A stretch of DNA of 4,265 nucleotides. It comes from a virus. Its lineage: Duplodnaviria > Heunggongvirae > Uroviricota > Caudoviricetes. The position numbers and the translations under genes are program-made. Location: IMG/VR virus record IMGVR_UViG_2671180846_000015. One strand, 5' to 3'. Positions 1 to 4,265 of this stretch are shown in pieces (position 1 is the stretch's first letter; each line of letters starts with the position of its first letter). A model generated the notes under the pieces. It was given only the letters and a program-made list of their open reading frames with translations, was not told where the DNA came from and did no database searches.

Positions 1-143
1 TTCAGCAGCACGCTTTTTAATCCATCCACCGGACCTTCAATCGGCCCTTCGCTGATGGCATCAATCACACTCAGCAGCTGCGTGGATTTCAGGTTATCTT
101 TCGCTTCGCGCGGGGTATGCCCCTTACTGCTGCCTTTACCCAT
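1..143 (-). CDS. J: Tail tip host-specificity protein J (central tail fibre), N-terminal 47 codons only; the gene continues beyond the window start
   Basis: Reverse complement of 1..143 reads from ATG (143..141) as MGKGSSKGHTPREAKDNLKSTQLLSVIDAISEGPIEGPVDGLKSVLL with no stop before the window edge. This matches the lambda gpJ N-terminus as I recall it, and it sits 60 nt downstream of the I stop as in lambda. It is absent from the ORF track because it runs off the window. Confidence 0.85.
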   Translation of the reverse strand, partial: MGKGSSKGHTPREAKDNLKSTQLLSVIDAISEGPIEGPVDGLKSVLL

Positions 144-165: not shown

Positions 166-185
166 AAACCGCCCGCAGGCGGTTT
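166..185 (-). terminator. Candidate stem-loop in the I-J intergenic spacer (weak intrinsic-terminator-like or mRNA structural element)
   Basis: Perfect 8-bp inverted repeat aaaccgcc (166-173) / ggcggttt (178-185) with a 4-nt loop. On the minus-strand transcript it reads AAACCGCC-UGCG-GGCGGUUU followed by UGUCGUUUAU (U-rich but interrupted). It lies between the I stop (204) and the J start (143). Confidence 0.3.
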
Positions 186-203
186 CACATAAAACATTTT
201 GCA

Positions 204-875
204 TCAGCGACCAATCACCACAACCTGACCACCGTCCCCTTCGTCTGCCGTGCTGATCTCCTGAGAAACCACGCGAGACCCCACGCGCATTTCCCCGTAC
301 AGAACAGGCAGAACATTGCCCTGGGCAACCATGTTATCCAGTGAGGAGAAATAGGTGTTCTGCTTACCGTTATCCGTTGTCTGTGTACGGGGAGTTCTGG
401 CTTTCGGTGCCAGCATCTGCGCCACACCACCGAGCACCATACTGGCACCGAGAGAAAACAGGATGCCGGTCATACCACCGGCCCCAATGGCTGCCCCCCA
501 TGCTGCAAGGGTGGCTCCGGCGGTAAAGAATGATCCGGCAATGGCTGCAGCCCCCAGGACAATCTGGAATACGCCACCTGACTTGGCCCCGGCGACTCTG
601 GGAACAATATGAATCACAGCGCCATCAGGCAGAGTCTCATGTAACTGCGCCGTTAACCCGGACGCGCTGACGTCCCGCCCGGCAATCCGTACCTGATACC
701 AGCCGTCGCTCAGTTTCTGACGAAACGCCGGGAGCTGTGTGGCCAGTGCGCGGATGGCTTCAGCCCCCGTTTTCACACGAAGGTCGATGCGGCGGCCAAA
801 TCGTTGCAAATCCCCGTAAAGGCAGATGCGTGCCATTCCCGGTGACGCCAGAGGGAGTGTGTGCGTCGCTGCCAT
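204..875 (-). CDS. I: Tail tip assembly protein I (223 aa): N-terminal ubiquitin-like beta-grasp domain ending in Gly-Gly, then a Gly/Ala-rich hydrophobic C-terminal region
   Basis: Complete ORF with ATG at 875..873 and TGA at 206..204. Its 223-aa length and sequence (MAATHTLPLASPGMARICLYGDLQRF...) match lambda gpI as I recall it. It overlaps the 3' end of K by 103 nt in another frame, as in lambda. A purine-rich GGGAGAGG lies 11 nt upstream of the ATG. Confidence 0.95.
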   Translation of the reverse strand: MAATHTLPLASPGMARICLYGDLQRFGRRIDLRVKTGAEAIRALATQLPAFRQKLSDGWYQVRIAGRDVSASGLTAQLHETLPDGAVIHIVPRVAGAKSGGVFQIVLGAAAIAGSFFTAGATLAAWGAAIGAGGMTGILFSLGASMVLGGVAQMLAPKARTPRTQTTDNGKQNTYFSSLDNMVAQGNVLPVLYGEMRVGSRVVSQEISTADEGDGGQVVVIGR

Positions 876-1586
876 TTGTCGGTATACCTCTCCCGTTTAC
901 TCAGTTGTTCAGGAATATGGTGCAGCAGCTCGCCGTCACCACAGTAAATAGCGGCGTGATTCGGCACCGATGAACCAAAACAGCACAGCAGCACATCGCC
1001 CGGCTGCGCCGCTGACAACGGCACCTGATACAGCCCTGTGGCCTCCAGATTATCCAGATAGAGATTCTGACCGTTACGCCACCAGTCATCCTCACGCACA
1101 AAATCCGGCATCTCAATCTCCGCCAGATGATAAGCATCCCGGAACAGTGTGTAACAGTCCGTCACACCGTGCTCAAAGCGCCGCCCGGTGAGATGCGGCA
1201 CACAGCGGAACTTATGAATCTCACCCCGGCAGACCAGCCACCACGGCAAATCACTCTGCACCTGCAGCCGCCGGTCGGCCTCACTCAGCCAGGGCAGACC
1301 ACCGGGGTGGCTGTGGACCAGCGCCACAATCTCCCCCTGCATTTCTGCCTGCAGCCAGTCTTCCGGCGACATACGGAAATACGCCTCCGGCTCACCGGAG
1401 ATATTCACGCAGGGGAAATATCTTTCCCCCTCCGGCGTGCTTACCACGAAGCCGCACGACTCCGCTGGCGCACATCGCCGGGCGTGCGCCAGAATCGCTG
1501 ATTCNNNNNNNNNNNNNNNNNNNNNNNNNNNNNNNNNNNNNNNNNNNNNNNNNNTGCGCCAGAATCGCTGATTCTGTCTGTGTCAT
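773..1586 (-). CDS. K: Tail tip assembly protein K (JAB/MPN metalloprotease-like N-terminal domain + NlpC/P60 C40-peptidase-like C-terminal domain), interrupted in this assembly by an N gap plus duplicated flank
   Basis: The ATG at 1586..1584 opens MTQTESAILA, then the reading frame is broken by 50 N plus a 20-bp duplicated flank (70 nt, frameshifting). Deleting 1505..1574 gives one continuous ORF of about 247 aa: MTQTESAILAHARRCAPAESCGFVVSTPEGERYFPCVNISGEPEAYFRMSPEDWLQAEMQGEIVALVHSHPGGLPWLSEAD...DCYTLF...PNHAAIYCGDGELLHH...ASTFV, stop at 775..773. The intact part matches lambda gpK. The internal ATG at 1372 gives exactly 199 aa, the lambda K length I recall. JAMM motif HSHPx6Sx2D is at about 1274..1315 and the NlpC/P60-like Cys is at about 1154..1156. 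Confidence 0.85.
1485..1574. repeat. Perfect 20-bp direct duplication (tgcgccagaatcgctgattc) on both sides of the N gap; interpreted as an unmerged contig-end overlap, not a biological repeat
   Basis: 1485..1504 and 1555..1574 are identical. Collapsing one copy and the Ns restores the K reading frame and the lambda-like protein sequence across the join. Confidence 0.9.
1505..1554. other. Assembly gap (run of 50 N)
   Basis: Exactly 50 consecutive N, the conventional length for an unknown-size scaffold gap. It sits inside the K reading frame. Confidence 0.95.
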
Positions 1587-1591
1587 GGGAT

Positions 1592-2290
1592 TTACTGCGA
1601 AAGTTTGTTAATGGAAAGGAAGCCGCCAAAGTTGCCGACGTTATTGTGGAACTTACAACCGCTCAGGCATTTGCTGCATTTATCCTTCGTGATATCGGAC
1701 GTTGGCTGGTCATATTCATCCGCGACAGCCGGACCGCTATAACCGCACTCGTCACCGCGATAGGTCCAGGTGCAGGTGTTGGCCAGCATGATACGTCCCG
1801 GAAAAACAGCGCCNTCCGTTTCCGTCGGCGTGGACAGTACAAANGAGGCACTCACCGCGCTCAGTTCGCTGCACTGCTCAATGCGCCAGCGGCTGATCAC
1901 CTCCTGCTCCGGATCGGCGTAACTGTTTCCGTTGACGAAGTTCACCGCATCCAGAAAACGGGCGTAAACCTTACGCCTGACCACCGTTCCGCCGACCAGA
2001 CTCTGCATATCTTCCACCATACCGGTGACCATGCCGTGCAGGTTAGAAACCGTCAGTGTCGGACGGGCAGCACTGCCCTTGCCGTTCAGTTCAAATCCCG
2101 TCCCCTGAATGGGNTANNCCTGATACTGNCGCCCCTGCCAGNTNACCGGCTCACCTTTTTCGTTCTGCTCATTACAGAAAAAATAACGTTCNCCACCGAC
2201 CTCTGTCAGNTCGATTTCCCAGAGCACCACGCTGGCCGACTGCTCCGCACGGGTGCATTCATTCAGTGTTTCCTGCCGGATATCCTGCAT
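1592..2290 (-). CDS. L: Tail tip assembly protein L (232 aa) with a C-terminal cysteine cluster; contains 10 ambiguous base calls
   Basis: ORF with ATG at 2290..2288 (overlapping the M stop as TGATG) and TAA at 1594..1592. Its 232-aa length and sequence (MQDIRQETLNECTRAEQSASVVLWEI...CTWTYRGDECGY...CSKCLSGCKF...) match lambda gpL. Single N bases at 1814, 1844, 2114, 2117, 2118, 2129, 2142, 2144, 2192 and 2210 give X residues. AGGTGG lies about 7 nt upstream of the ATG. Confidence 0.93.
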   Translation of the reverse strand: MQDIRQETLNECTRAEQSASVVLWEIXLTEVGXERYFFCNEQNEKGEPXXWQGXQYQXXPIQGTGFELNGKGSAARPTLTVSNLHGMVTGMVEDMQSLVGGTVVRRKVYARFLDAVNFVNGNSYADPEQEVISRWRIEQCSELSAVSAXFVLSTPTETXGAVFPGRIMLANTCTWTYRGDECGYSGPAVADEYDQPTSDITKDKCSKCLSGCKFHNNVGNFGGFLSINKLSQ

Positions 2291-2619
2291 CAGTTCACCA
2301 CCTGTTTAAACTCTGCGCTGAACTCAACACGCAACATACTGACCTGCGACGACCATTTTGCGCAGGTCACCTTTATCTGCCTGTAACCATAAGGCGGCGT
2401 CCACAGAAAGGCCTTCCAGCCCCCGTGCTCAGCCAGAAACGACTCCAGCGCCGTGGCCTCCTCACGGGAGACAGACAGCGTCACGCTGTACGTTTTCAGG
2501 TCAGCGTTCAGCCCGGCAGGCACACGCTGGGAATAGCCATCACCAAAGCGCACCTCCCTGACGGAAGGGGCCGATGTCACATCCATACCGGGTTTCACTT
2601 TCCAGCGGAAGGTTTTCAT
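2290..2619 (-). CDS. M: Tail tip assembly protein M (109 aa)
   Basis: ORF with ATG at 2619..2617 overlapping the H stop (ATGA) and TGA at 2292..2290. Its 109-aa length and sequence (MKTFRWKVKPGMDV...RVEFSAEFKQVVN) match lambda gpM as I recall it. Confidence 0.95.
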   Translation of the reverse strand: MKTFRWKVKPGMDVTSAPSVREVRFGDGYSQRVPAGLNADLKTYSVTLSVSREEATALESFLAEHGGWKAFLWTPPYGYRQIKVTCAKWSSQVSMLRVEFSAEFKQVVN

Positions 2620-4265
2620 CGTCCACCTCCGGAGAACAGGCCACCATCACGCATCTGTGTCTGAATTTCATCACGGGCACCCTTGCGGGCCATGTCATAC
2701 ACCGCCTTCAGAGCAGCCGGACCTATCTGCCCGTTCGTGCCGTCGTTGTTAATCACCACATGGTTATTCTGCTCAAACGTCCCGGACGCCTGCGACCGGC
2801 TGTCTGCCATGCTGCCCGGTGTACCGACATAACCGCCGGTGGCATAGCCGCGCATCAGCCGGTAAAGATTCCCCACGCCAATCCGGCTGGTTGCCTCCTT
2901 CGTGAAGACAAACTCACCACGGTGAACAATCCCCGCTGGCTCATATTTGCCGCCGGTTCCCGTAAATCCTCCGGTTGCAAAATGGAATTTCGCCGCAGCG
3001 GCCTGAATGGCTGTACCGCCTGACGCGGATGCGCCGCCACCAACAGCCCCGCCAATGGCGCTGCCGATACTCCCGACAATCCCCACCATTGCCTGCTTAA
3101 GCAGAATTTCTGTCATCATGGACAGCACGGAACGGGTGAAGCTGCGCCAGTTCTGCTCACTGCCGGTCAGCATCGCGGCCATATTCTGTGCAATACCATC
3201 AAAGGTCTGCGTGGCTGCACTTTTTACCTGCGACATACTGTCCGTGGCGCTCTCTTCCCACTCACTCCAGCCGGACTTCAGGCCTGCCATCCAGCTCCCG
3301 CGAAGCTGGTCTTCAGCCGCCCAGGTCTTTTTCTGCTCTGACATGACGTTATTCAGCGCCAGCGGATTATCGCCATACTGTTCCTTCAGGCGCTGTTCCG
3401 TGGCTTCCCGTTCTGCCTGCCGGTCAGTCAGCCCCCGGCTTTTCGCATCAATGGCGGCCCGTTTTGCCCGTTGCTGCTGTGCGAATTTATCCGCCTGCTG
3501 CGCCAGCGCGTTCAGGCGCTCCTGATACGTAACCTTGTCGCCAAGTGCAGCCAGCTGGCGTTTGTACTCCAGCGTCTCATCTTTATGCGCCAGCAGGGAT
3601 TTCTCCTGTGCGGACAGCTGGCGACGTTGTGCCGCCTCCTCCAGTACCGCGAACTGACTTTCTGCCTTCCACAAATCCCGGCGCTGCTGGCTGATTTTCT
3701 CATTCGCTCCGGCATGCTTCTCCAGCGTCCGGAGTTCTGCCTGAAGCGTCAGCAGGGCAGCATGAGCACTGTCTTCCTGACGATCGCCCGCAGACACCTT
3801 CACGCCGGACTGTTTCGGCTTTTTCAGCGTCGCTTCATAATCCTTTTTCGCCGCCGCCATCAGCGTGTTGTAATCCGCCTGCAGGATTTTCCCGTCTTTC
3901 AGTGCCTTGTTCAGTTCTTCCTGACGGGCGGTATATTTCTCCAGCGGCGTCTGCAGCCGTTTGTAAGCCTTCTGCGCCTCTTCGGTATATTTCAGCCGTG
4001 ACGCTTCGGTATCGCTCTGCTGCTGCGCATTTTTGTCCTGTTGAGTCTGCTGCTCAGCCTTCTTTCGGGCGGCTTCAAGCGCAAGACGGGCCTTTTCACG
4101 ATCATCCCAGTAACGCGCCCGCGCTTCATCGTTAACAAAATAATCATCCTTGCGCAGATTCCAGATGTCGTCTGCTTTCTTAAACGCAGCCTCTGCCTTA
4201 ATCAGCATCTCCTGCGCGGTATCAGGACGACCAATATCCAGCACCGCATCCCACATGGATTTGAA
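2616..4265 (-). CDS. H: Tail tape measure protein H, C-terminal about 549 codons (5' end beyond the window); coiled-coil-rich middle region, Gly-rich hydrophobic segment and C-terminal domain
   Basis: The ORF is open from the window edge (4265) to TGA at 2618..2616. The first in-window residues FKSMWDAVLDIGRPDTAQEM... through to ...MRDGGLFSGGGR match the C-terminal two thirds of lambda gpH (853 aa) as I recall it. The track's ATG at 4256 is internal, not the true start. A Gly-rich stretch GIVGSIGSAIGGAVGGGASASGG is encoded at about 3083..3015. Confidence 0.95.
   Translation of the reverse strand, partial: FKSMWDAVLDIGRPDTAQEMLIKAEAAFKKADDIWNLRKDDYFVNDEARARYWDDREKARLALEAARKKAEQQTQQDKNAQQQSDTEASRLKYTEEAQKAYKRLQTPLEKYTARQEELNKALKDGKILQADYNTLMAAAKKDYEATLKKPKQSGVKVSAGDRQEDSAHAALLTLQAELRTLEKHAGANEKISQQRRDLWKAESQFAVLEEAAQRRQLSAQEKSLLAHKDETLEYKRQLAALGDKVTYQERLNALAQQADKFAQQQRAKRAAIDAKSRGLTDRQAEREATEQRLKEQYGDNPLALNNVMSEQKKTWAAEDQLRGSWMAGLKSGWSEWEESATDSMSQVKSAATQTFDGIAQNMAAMLTGSEQNWRSFTRSVLSMMTEILLKQAMVGIVGSIGSAIGGAVGGGASASGGTAIQAAAAKFHFATGGFTGTGGKYEPAGIVHRGEFVFTKEATSRIGVGNLYRLMRGYATGGYVGTPGSMADSRSQASGTFEQNNHVVINNDGTNGQIGPAALKAVYDMARKGARDEIQTQMRDGGLFSGGGR
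2626..2630 (-). promoter_or_regulatory. Shine-Dalgarno (GGAGG) for M, 6-nt spacer, embedded in the 3' end of H
   Basis: Minus-strand reading upstream of the M ATG is CTCCGGAGGTGGACG-ATG. Confidence 0.5.

What the first reader, a model, noticed from the sequence alone, without database searches (positions are those of the whole stretch)
204..1586. Adjacent overlapping genes encode a ubiquitin-like protein with Gly-Gly (I) and a JAB + NlpC/P60 peptidase (K)
The first 101 residues of I look like a small beta-grasp/ThiS-MoaD-like domain and end in ...VPRVAGAKSGG (Gly-Gly encoded at 573..578), directly followed by a hydrophobic Gly/Ala-rich C-terminal region. K, whose 3' end overlaps I by 103 nt, has a JAMM motif (HSHPx6Sx2D) and an NlpC/P60-like Cys/His set (DCYTL, PNHAAIY, LLHH). 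Comparative-genomics work has already pointed to phage tail-assembly I/K pairs as ubiquitin-like/JAB systems, so this is not new. The substrate and the role of any cleavage after the Gly-Gly remain an open mechanistic question.
Basis: partly seen in the sequence, partly recalled or inferred. Interest (0 to 1): 0.45.

Follow-up and report, generated by a model that had tools for sequence, protein, structure and literature searches.

The report
Lambda tail genes K and I
These are the well-known phage lambda tail-tip genes K and I, sitting in an E. coli prophage: K is a two-domain peptidase that trims a ubiquitin-like cap off I during tail assembly, which was predicted in 2006 and has since been supported by experiments, so the finding is real but ordinary.

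Summary
On the minus strand the window carries the lambda tail module: H (3' part), M, L, K, I and the start of J. It is 97.5% identical to lambda and, over positions 1-1504, 100% identical to E. coli chromosomal prophages.

- **K.** Once a scaffolding artefact is collapsed (50 N plus a 20-nt duplicate), K is a 247-aa Prok-JAB + NlpC/P60 protein. Both catalytic residue sets are invariant in relatives at 29-46% identity.
- **Conservation of the pair.** It was present in all seven distant phages sampled.
- **Prior knowledge.** Iyer et al. (2006) predicted that the JAB domain releases the ubiquitin-like domain. Cryo-EM finds only the C-terminal part of gpI in virions. An F-pyocin preprint shows the N-domain of the I homologue is removed. 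A 2025 conference report says gpK cleaves gpI.

I add three refinements:
- The family-conserved glycine is G96 (motif P-x3-G-[A/G/S]), not the Gly-Gly at 100-101, so the cut may fall after A97.
- Lambda's 199-aa annotation of K truncates the JAB domain.
- The 190-aa PGAP model of I truncates the beta-grasp domain.

Verdict: already known, low interest.

The parts
204..875 (-). Gene I (tail tip assembly / tip plug protein), 223 aa including stop
   Evidence: ORF. PF06805 at E 3e-28. It differs at 2 residues from the gpI sequence in PDB entries 8iyk, 8iyl, 8k35 and 8xcg.
585..836 (-). Ubiquitin-like beta-grasp domain of I (residues 14-97)
585..590 (-). G96-A97, the family-conserved end of the ubiquitin-like domain and a candidate cleavage site (after A97)
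   Evidence: G96 is present in 61 of 64 homologues and A/S/G at position 97 in 59 of 64. The motif P-x3-G-[AGS] is in 57 of 64. These residues lie at +3/+4 after beta5. A profile alignment puts G96 opposite the penultimate residue of MoaD 3rpf_C (weak, E 1.6).
573..578 (-).
   Evidence: Read from the sequence. G100 is in 39 of 64 homologues and G101 in 50 of 64. A GG within 6 residues downstream of the motif occurs in 38 of 64. One paper says the closed-state gpI model starts at about residue 101.
405..572 (-). Hydrophobic Gly/Ala-rich helices of I (residues 102-157; H1/H2, predicted membrane-inserting)
   Evidence: Composition. G108 is invariant in 64 of 64 homologues. Described.
207..476 (-). 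C-terminal plug domain of I (residues 134-223), the part resolved in virions
   Evidence: PDB 9e7m chains cover residues 133-222. Residues 135-223 and 134-222 are modelled as a trimeric plug holding the C-terminus of gpH.
773..1586 (-). Gene K, a 247-aa two-domain peptidase, interrupted in the window by the gap artefact
   Evidence: Reconstruction. Annotated as a 744-nt 'C40 family peptidase' in an E. coli chromosome. Clusters of 247-aa homologues each hold thousands of members.
1202..1580 (-). JAB/JAMM metallopeptidase domain of K (residues 3-105); E19 at 1460-1462, H68 at 1313-1315, H70 at 1307-1309, S78 at 1283-1285, D81 at 1274-1276
845..1186 (-). NlpC/P60 (C40) papain-like domain of K (residues 111-224); C121 at 1154-1156, H187 at 956-958, H199 at 920-922
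773..875 (-). 103-nt K/I overlap, coding in two frames
   Evidence: Coordinates. K's C-terminal tail (W215...N238, D239) is conserved across enterobacterial relatives at 68-95% identity. I's N-terminal residues 1-34 are conserved in relatives down to about 70% identity.
1485..1574 (.). Assembly artefact: 50 N flanked by an identical 20-nt duplicate
   Evidence: Collapsing it restores colinearity with lambda.
1592..2290 (-). Gene L (tail tip hub protein), context
   Evidence: PF05100 at E 2.5e-94.
2290..2619 (-). Gene M (distal tail protein), context
   Evidence: PF05939 at E 1.2e-38.
2616..4265 (-). Gene H (tape measure protein), 3' part, context
   Evidence: PF09718. Lambda annotation.
1..143 (-). 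Start of gene J (central tail fibre), context
   Evidence: Lambda and E. coli annotation.

Best explanation
This is the K-I pair of a lambda-type prophage tail module.

**I** is made as a precursor with three parts:
- an N-terminal ubiquitin-like beta-grasp domain (about residues 14-97);
- two hydrophobic helices;
- a C-terminal domain that docks as a trimer into the J/L hub and plugs the tail tip, holding the C-terminus of the tape measure protein.

**K** is an assembly-only enzyme that is absent from virions. Its N-terminal JAB/JAMM zinc metallopeptidase domain (E19, H68, H70, S78, D81) acts like a deubiquitinase. It cuts the ubiquitin-like domain off I after I has joined the tip complex. 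Removing that domain lets the tape measure, the M ring and the tube be added, so the cut works as an assembly checkpoint.

**What is shown here:** the folds, the domain families, the conserved catalytic residues and the conserved gene pairing.

**What is taken from the literature:** that only the C-terminal part of I is in virions, that the N-domain of a homologue is removed, and that gpK does the cutting.

**What is inferred:** the exact scissile bond. I favour after G96-A97, with after G100-G101 as the alternative. The role of the second domain (NlpC/P60) also remains inferred.
For: - **Identity.** The window is 97.5% identical to lambda and 100% identical over 1-1504 to E. coli prophages.
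- **Pairing.** A JAB+NlpC K lies directly upstream of a ubiquitin-like I in 7 of 7 distant phages sampled.
- **Literature.**
  - Prediction by Iyer et al. 2006.
  - Only gpI residues from about 101 or 134 onward are resolved in tails and virions, and gpK is not detected.
  - Lambda virion mass spectrometry found one gpI peptide at 9.87% coverage. That equals the 22-residue C-terminal tryptic peptide 202-223, and no N-domain peptides were found.
  - The N-domain of the F-pyocin homologue PA0640 is present in stalled tips and absent from mature particles.
Against: - The direct experimental claim that gpK cleaves gpI is available to me only as a conference summary, not as a paper with data.
- The cleavage site is not stated anywhere I could read.
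- The F-pyocin authors say the protease for PA0640 is still undefined, and they saw the N-domain removed by unknown host proteases when PA0640 was expressed alone in E. coli.
- Missing cryo-EM density and a single mass-spectrometry peptide would also fit a disordered, uncleaved N-domain.
- I could not model the K-I complex, so docking of the I tail into the JAB site is untested.
Confidence: 0.85

Rival explanations
1. The NlpC/P60 cysteine peptidase domain of K, not the JAB domain, removes the ubiquitin-like domain from I. In this reading the JAB domain only binds the ubiquitin-like domain.
For: - C121, H187 and H199 are as invariant as the JAMM residues.
- Papain-fold enzymes include most eukaryotic deubiquitinases.
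Against: - The full JAMM catalytic set (E, HxH, S, D) is invariant, which argues that the JAB domain is an active enzyme.
- The closest structural relatives of the JAB domain are enzymes that cut after the C-terminal Gly of ubiquitin or SAMP.
- The conference report attributes the activity to the 'deubiquitinating domain'.
- All 7 sampled K proteins keep the JAB domain.
Confidence: 0.08
2. I is not cleaved. Its ubiquitin-like domain stays attached but is flexible and invisible in virions, and K acts as a non-catalytic chaperone for tip assembly.
For: - The N-terminal part is simply unresolved in cryo-EM maps. One paper speculates that it persists and might act on the cell wall.
- Mass-spectrometry coverage of gpI in virions is very low, with one peptide.
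Against: - Two complete, invariant catalytic sets in K are not expected of a pure chaperone.
- The N-domain of PA0640 is detected in stalled tips but not in mature F-pyocin.
- The conference report states that cleavage occurs.
- The only lambda virion peptide is the C-terminal one, although the N-domain has several good tryptic peptides.
Confidence: 0.04
3. The ubiquitin-like domain of I is a true modifier or sulfur carrier. Once freed by K it would be activated and conjugated, as with ThiS/MoaD/SAMP or the bacterial Bil systems.
For: - The fold is closest to MoaD and SAMP1.
- The tail has a conserved Gly.
- JAB domains pair with E1/E2 enzymes in other bacterial systems.
Against: - No E1- or E2-like gene lies in the window or in the sampled L-K-I-J modules.
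- The residue after G96 is usually Ala or Ser rather than Gly.
- Iyer et al. list the phage system as ubiquitin-like protein plus JAB only.
Confidence: 0.03

Closest known systems
Phage lambda gpI (tail tip assembly protein I; Pfam PF06805 Lambda_tail_I; the TAPI family of Iyer et al. 2006)
   Same: Two substitutions out of 223 residues (A71 for T, T164 for I). Same length, same 103-nt overlap with K and same L-K-I-J gene order.
   Different: Nothing of substance. This copy sits in an E. coli chromosomal prophage rather than in lambda itself.
Phage lambda gpK (tail tip assembly protein K; Prok-JAB PF14464 + NlpC/P60 PF00877; C40 family peptidase)
   Same: Seven substitutions across the 247-aa ORF, with all catalytic residues identical.
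   Different: Lambda records annotate a 199-aa K starting at M49. The 247-aa form used here is needed for a complete JAB domain: 52.6 bits for the long form against 23.7 bits for the short one, which is below the cut-off of 25.
F-type pyocin PA0640 / PA0639 (I and K homologues)
   Same: Only the C-terminal plug is visible in mature particles, the N-domain is removed before the tip joins the tube, and the K homologue is absent from particles yet needed for tip assembly. PDB 25vf_9 is a 200-aa tail assembly protein that matches I at E 5e-18. Its length suggests it is PA0640, but I did not confirm that.
   Different: It belongs to a tailocin, not a phage, and is only distantly related in sequence. 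Its protease has not been formally assigned.
SAMP1/SAMP2 with the JAMM desampylases (HvJAMM1, PfJAMM1), and MoaD/ThiS
   Different: There is no E1 and no conjugation. Here the beta-grasp domain is the N-terminal part of a structural protein precursor, and its tail is G-A rather than G-G.
Bacterial ubiquitin-like defence systems (Bil: BilA-D; CBASS Cap2/Cap3)
   Different: Those are host defence systems with E1/E2 enzymes that conjugate a ubiquitin-like protein or a CD-NTase. This is a phage assembly device with no ligase.

Membership tests
Lambda_tail_I / TAPI (PF06805) | Sequence match above the Pfam gathering score | tested here: met
   98.5 bits against a cut-off of 23.8, over residues 14-97.
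Lambda_tail_I / TAPI (PF06805) | N-terminal ThiS/MoaD-like beta-grasp fold | tested here: met
Lambda_tail_I / TAPI (PF06805) | Conserved glycine at the C-terminal end of the beta-grasp domain, followed by a Gly-rich linker and the TAPI-C domain | tested here: met
   G96 in 61 of 64 homologues and G108 in 64 of 64. The C-terminal domain is nearly identical to the PDB gpI plug, with one substitution in residues 133-222.
Lambda_tail_I / TAPI (PF06805) | Position in the tail module between K (JAB + NlpC/P60) and J | tested here: met
   Seen in the window and in 7 distant phages.
JAB/JAMM/MPN+ metallopeptidase (PF14464 Prok-JAB) | Sequence match above the gathering score | tested here: met
   52.6 bits against a cut-off of 25 for the 247-aa K. 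The 199-aa form scores only 23.7 bits.
JAB/JAMM/MPN+ metallopeptidase (PF14464 Prok-JAB) | JAMM motif E...HxH...S-x2-D intact | tested here: met
   E19, H68, H70 and D81 are invariant and position 78 is S or T in 8 K proteins at 29-46% identity. The residues align with 2kks_A.
JAB/JAMM/MPN+ metallopeptidase (PF14464 Prok-JAB) | MPN fold | tested here: met
JAB/JAMM/MPN+ metallopeptidase (PF14464 Prok-JAB) | Zinc-dependent cleavage after the tail of a ubiquitin-like domain | not testable with these tools
   Only a conference summary reports it for gpK and gpI.
NlpC/P60 (C40, PF00877) | Sequence match above the gathering score | tested here: met
   46.7 bits against a cut-off of 23.
NlpC/P60 (C40, PF00877) | Catalytic Cys-His-(His/polar) triad | tested here: met
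   C121, H187 and H199 are invariant.
NlpC/P60 (C40, PF00877) | Papain-like fold | tested here: met
NlpC/P60 (C40, PF00877) | Peptidoglycan (gamma-D-Glu-mDAP) endopeptidase activity | not testable with these tools
   The substrate is unknown. gpK was not detected in virions, which argues against a role at infection.
Ubiquitin-like conjugation system (E1/E2 + ubiquitin-like protein + deubiquitinase, e.g. Bil, SAMP) | An E1-like adenylating enzyme (with or without an E2) encoded with the ubiquitin-like protein | tested here: not met
   The window encodes only H, M, L, K, I and J. The sampled homologous modules also lack one.
ThiS/MoaD sulfur carriers | A free C-terminal Gly-Gly on a stand-alone small protein | tested here: not met
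   The beta-grasp domain is fused to a C-terminal region of about 125 residues, and the tail is G-A.

The most novel reading that the evidence does not exclude
The invariant NlpC/P60 catalytic triad of K may have its own proteolytic substrate in the tail tip. The obvious candidate is the tape measure protein gpH, whose C-terminal cleavage to gpH* has no known protease. K would then be a dual-specificity assembly protease controlling two checkpoints. A smaller open point is that the I cut may fall after G96-A97 rather than after the Gly-Gly at 100-101.
Probability: 0.12. Interest if true: 0.5.

Novelty: already known. Interest (0 to 1): 0.15.

Why it matters
The K/I pair is a clean example of a ubiquitin-like domain and a JAMM 'deubiquitinase' working together without any conjugation machinery, as a proteolytic checkpoint in virus assembly. 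It bears on how ubiquitin systems evolved and on how siphophage and tailocin tail tips mature. All of that has already been proposed (2006) and is now being shown experimentally in lambda and F-pyocins. This window adds one more copy of a gene pair found in about 80% of complete E. coli genomes (4409 of 5426). The practical value lies in annotation: the 199-aa K and 190-aa I gene models in public records cut off essential parts of the two interacting domains.

Tried and rejected
- **Related-locus scans with single proteins.** Scans with single distant I proteins gave only one usable locus. I switched to a tblastn search of the phage collection and sampled distant records instead.
- **PDB search with K alone.** phmmer of the 224-aa K fragment against PDB found nothing at E <= 0.01. 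A profile of K homologues was needed to reach JAB structures.
- **K-I complex model.** I considered folding a natural K-I frameshift fusion (P0153, 428 aa) to see whether the I tail docks in the JAB site. I dropped the idea because the structure tool returns no coordinates, so distances could not be measured.
- **P0288.** This 2783-aa protein has 23 matches to I residues 10-62. It turned out to be a tandem-repeat protein in which each repeat scores only about 30 bits, so it is probably not a real relative.
- **Full paper on gpK cleaving gpI.** I searched for one and found only the conference summary.
- **Structure 2024 lambda tail paper (PDB 8IYK).** It is not in the library.
- **Plus-strand ORFs.** The ORFs across the region (for example 1127-1501 and 1580-2386) are antisense to well-supported genes, and I did not test them separately.

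Full report
**What the window is.** All the substantial ORFs that match protein families lie on the minus strand. In order they are:
- the 3' part of a tape measure gene (2616-4265; PF09718);
- M (2290-2619; PF05939);
- L (1592-2290; PF05100);
- K (773-1586);
- I (204-875; PF06805);
- the first 47 codons of J (1-143).

Megablast shows 99% coverage at 97.5% identity to phage lambda and its close relatives, with the genes annotated H, M, L, K, I and J. Positions 1-1504 are 100% identical to prophages in several E. coli chromosomes. Related sequence occurs in 4409 of 5426 complete E. coli genomes, with a median of 3 copies per genome. The window is therefore a lambdoid prophage tail-tip module, probably from a draft assembly.

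**Checking the observation.**
- I is 223 aa.
- Its residues 100-101 are Gly-Gly, encoded at 573-578.
- Residues 102-157 are 45% Gly+Ala and 84% hydrophobic or small.
- K's stop is at 773-775, so K and I overlap by 103 nt.
- K carries HSHP-x6-S-x2-D, DCYTL, PNHAAIY and LLHH.

One complication lies inside K. A run of 50 N (1505-1554) is flanked by an identical 20-nt duplicate (1485-1504 = 1555-1574). Together they insert 70 nt and break the frame. Removing them makes the window exactly colinear with lambda (4195 nt each; 99 substitutions plus 10 single Ns) and gives a 247-aa K with seven substitutions relative to lambda's ORF. I differs from lambda gpI at two residues. An E. coli chromosome carries the same K as an uninterrupted 744-nt 'C40 family peptidase' gene.

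**The ubiquitin-like domain of I.**
- Pfam places Lambda_tail_I on residues 14-97.
- I collected diverse homologues by an exhaustive search, which found 3201 representatives at E <= 0.001.
- I then modelled residues 1-110 with 64 of them as the alignment. Mean pLDDT was 81, and 85-93 across residues 11-90. The elements are beta1 14-19, beta2 29-33, helix 37-47, beta 59-64 and beta5 87-93.

**Which glycine matters.** I compared 64 near-full-length representatives at 32-79% identity.

| Position | Conservation |
|---|---|
| P92 | 62 of 64 |
| G96 | 61 of 64 |
| Position 97 (A, S or G) | 59 of 64 |
| G100 | 39 of 64 |
| G101 | 50 of 64 |
| G108 | 64 of 64 |

The motif P-x3-G-[A/G/S] occurs in 57 of 64, and a GG within six residues downstream in 38 of 64. 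Several homologues read ...GAGK followed directly by the hydrophobic helix, with no GG at all. In the model, G96-A97 sit three and four residues after beta5; from my own knowledge, that is the register of G75-G76 in ubiquitin. A weak profile hit (E 1.6) aligns G96 with the penultimate residue of MoaD 3rpf_C. From my own knowledge of MoaD and SAMP tails (FPPV[ST]GG), VPRVAGA aligns residue for residue. The conserved equivalent of the ubiquitin 'GG' is therefore G96-A97, and the Gly-Gly at 100-101 belongs to a variable linker. I infer that the cut is somewhat more likely after A97 than after G101. No source I could read gives the site.

**K.**
- The 247-aa K matches Prok-JAB over nearly the whole profile (52.6 bits) and NLPC_P60 (46.7 bits).
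- The 199-aa form annotated in lambda records scores only 23.7 bits for JAB, below the cut-off. It also lacks E19, the JAMM glutamate in PAESCG.
- Among 24 relatives at 68-95% identity, and among eight K proteins at 29-46% identity from Moraxella, Burkholderia, Vibrio, Shigella, Salmonella and Ralstonia phages and an IMG/VR contig, the residues E19, H68, H70, D81, C121, H187, H199 and H200 are invariant, and position 78 is Ser or Thr.
- A model of P0126, which is 97% identical to the window's K, has pLDDT 80.

Both domains look like active enzymes.

**The pair is conserved.** tblastn with I finds 1715 phage records across Escherichia, Klebsiella, Ralstonia, Pseudomonas, Burkholderia, Vibrio, Moraxella and Acinetobacter phages. 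In six annotated or ORF-scanned distant phages and one IMG/VR contig, the gene just upstream of I aligns with K and keeps both catalytic residue sets. I confirmed both Pfam domains in six of the seven. In Vibrio phage Pm34 one extra 166-aa gene with no Pfam match lies between K and I. Elsewhere the overlap is short (4-20 nt), so the 103-nt overlap is particular to the lambda group.

**What is already known.**
- Iyer, Burroughs and Aravind (2006) identified the ubiquitin-like domain of tail assembly protein I, its conserved C-terminal glycine, and the flanking K with JAB and NlpC/P60 domains. They predicted that the JAB domain releases the ubiquitin-like domain.
- Cryo-EM of lambda shows gpI as a structural trimeric plug inside the tip. 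Only residues from about 101, 134 or 135 onward are resolved, and gpK is not detected.
- The lambda virion proteome lists one gpI peptide at 9.87% coverage. I calculate that this matches only the C-terminal tryptic peptide 202-223, which is 22 of 223 residues. Five good N-domain tryptic peptides were not seen.
- A 2026 preprint on F-type pyocin shows by mass spectrometry that the N-domain of the I homologue PA0640 is present in stalled tips and absent from mature particles. It also shows that the K homologue PA0639 is needed for tip assembly but is absent from particles.

**Mechanism.** Putting this together:
1. I is a precursor.
2. Its C-terminal domain docks into the J/L hub.
3. K's JAB domain then removes the N-terminal beta-grasp domain.
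4. The tape measure C-terminus, the M ring and the tube can then be added.
5. K leaves.

My computations show the folds, residues and gene pairing. The cleavage itself comes from the literature. The scissile bond and the job of the NlpC/P60 domain are inferred or open.

The rivals are each unlikely:
- cleavage by the NlpC/P60 domain;
- no cleavage at all;
- a true conjugation or sulfur-carrier role. No E1 or E2 gene is present.

**Verdict.** Novelty: already known. Interest: 0.15. The only points beyond the literature I could access are small. The conserved glycine is G96 rather than G100-G101. Two common gene models are truncated: K at 199 aa and I at 190 aa. And the invariant NlpC/P60 triad still has no assigned substrate.

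Noticed in passing
window 1485-1574: A run of 50 N is flanked by an identical 20-nt duplicate (TGCGCCAGAATCGCTGATTC). This looks like a scaffolding artefact from overlapping contig ends. It inserts 70 nt and breaks the K reading frame, and collapsing it restores colinearity with lambda.
   Followed up: yes
window 1440-1586 (K residues 1-48): Lambda records annotate K as 199 aa starting at M49, which has a GGAGG 11 nt upstream. The ORF from the ATG 5 nt after the L stop gives 247 aa and a complete JAB domain that includes the catalytic E19. PGAP and most protein clusters use the 247-aa form. The classical lambda K annotation appears to be truncated.
   Followed up: partly
window 776-875 (I residues 1-34): Three start models for I are in circulation: ATG at 875 (223 aa, lambda), ATG at 836 (M14, 210 aa) and GTG at 776 (190 aa, PGAP, with a 4-nt overlap with K). 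Distant homologues begin at about residue 13-14, and G21 and L23 are at least 90% conserved. The 190-aa model therefore removes beta1 and beta2 of the beta-grasp domain. Whether residues 1-13 are translated is not settled.
   Followed up: partly
window 773-875: Both reading frames of the K/I overlap are conserved at the protein level in enterobacterial relatives (K tail W215..SAFTGI.NDL; I MAATHTLPLASPGMARICLYGDLQRFGRRIDLRV). The four nucleotide differences from lambda in this stretch are all synonymous in I and all change K. In more distant phages the overlap is only 4-20 nt.
   Followed up: partly
window 166-189 (I-J intergenic region, minus strand): A perfect 8-bp GC-rich hairpin, AAACCGCC-UGCG-GGCGGUUU, is followed by a U-rich stretch and lies between the I stop and the J start. 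The 71-nt region folds at -22.5 kcal/mol (z -2.35). It resembles a terminator or attenuator. The simple terminator scan did not list it.
   Followed up: partly
window 1814-2210 and 1978-2614: Ten isolated N bases fall inside gene L. Substitutions relative to lambda cluster in L (1978-2119) and across M (2307-2614), while H has only 10 differences in 1650 nt. This suggests mosaic recombination with another lambdoid phage, or low read quality in this stretch.
   Followed up: no
L007 929-1429 (Vibrio phage vB_PvuS_Pm34): An extra 166-aa gene with no Pfam match sits between the K and I homologues. This is the only sampled phage in which the pair is not adjacent.
   Followed up: no
P0288: A 2783-aa tandem-repeat protein gives 23 weak matches to I residues 10-64, at about 30 bits per repeat. 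The total score is inflated by the repetition, so it is probably not a true relative.
   Followed up: partly
P0153, P0198, P0133, P0030: Singleton database proteins fuse K to I (for example K1-218 + I6-223) or the JAB domain to I. They look like frameshift or deletion products within or near the overlap. The 'TAPI fused to JAB' architecture reported in 2006 may be of this kind.
   Followed up: partly
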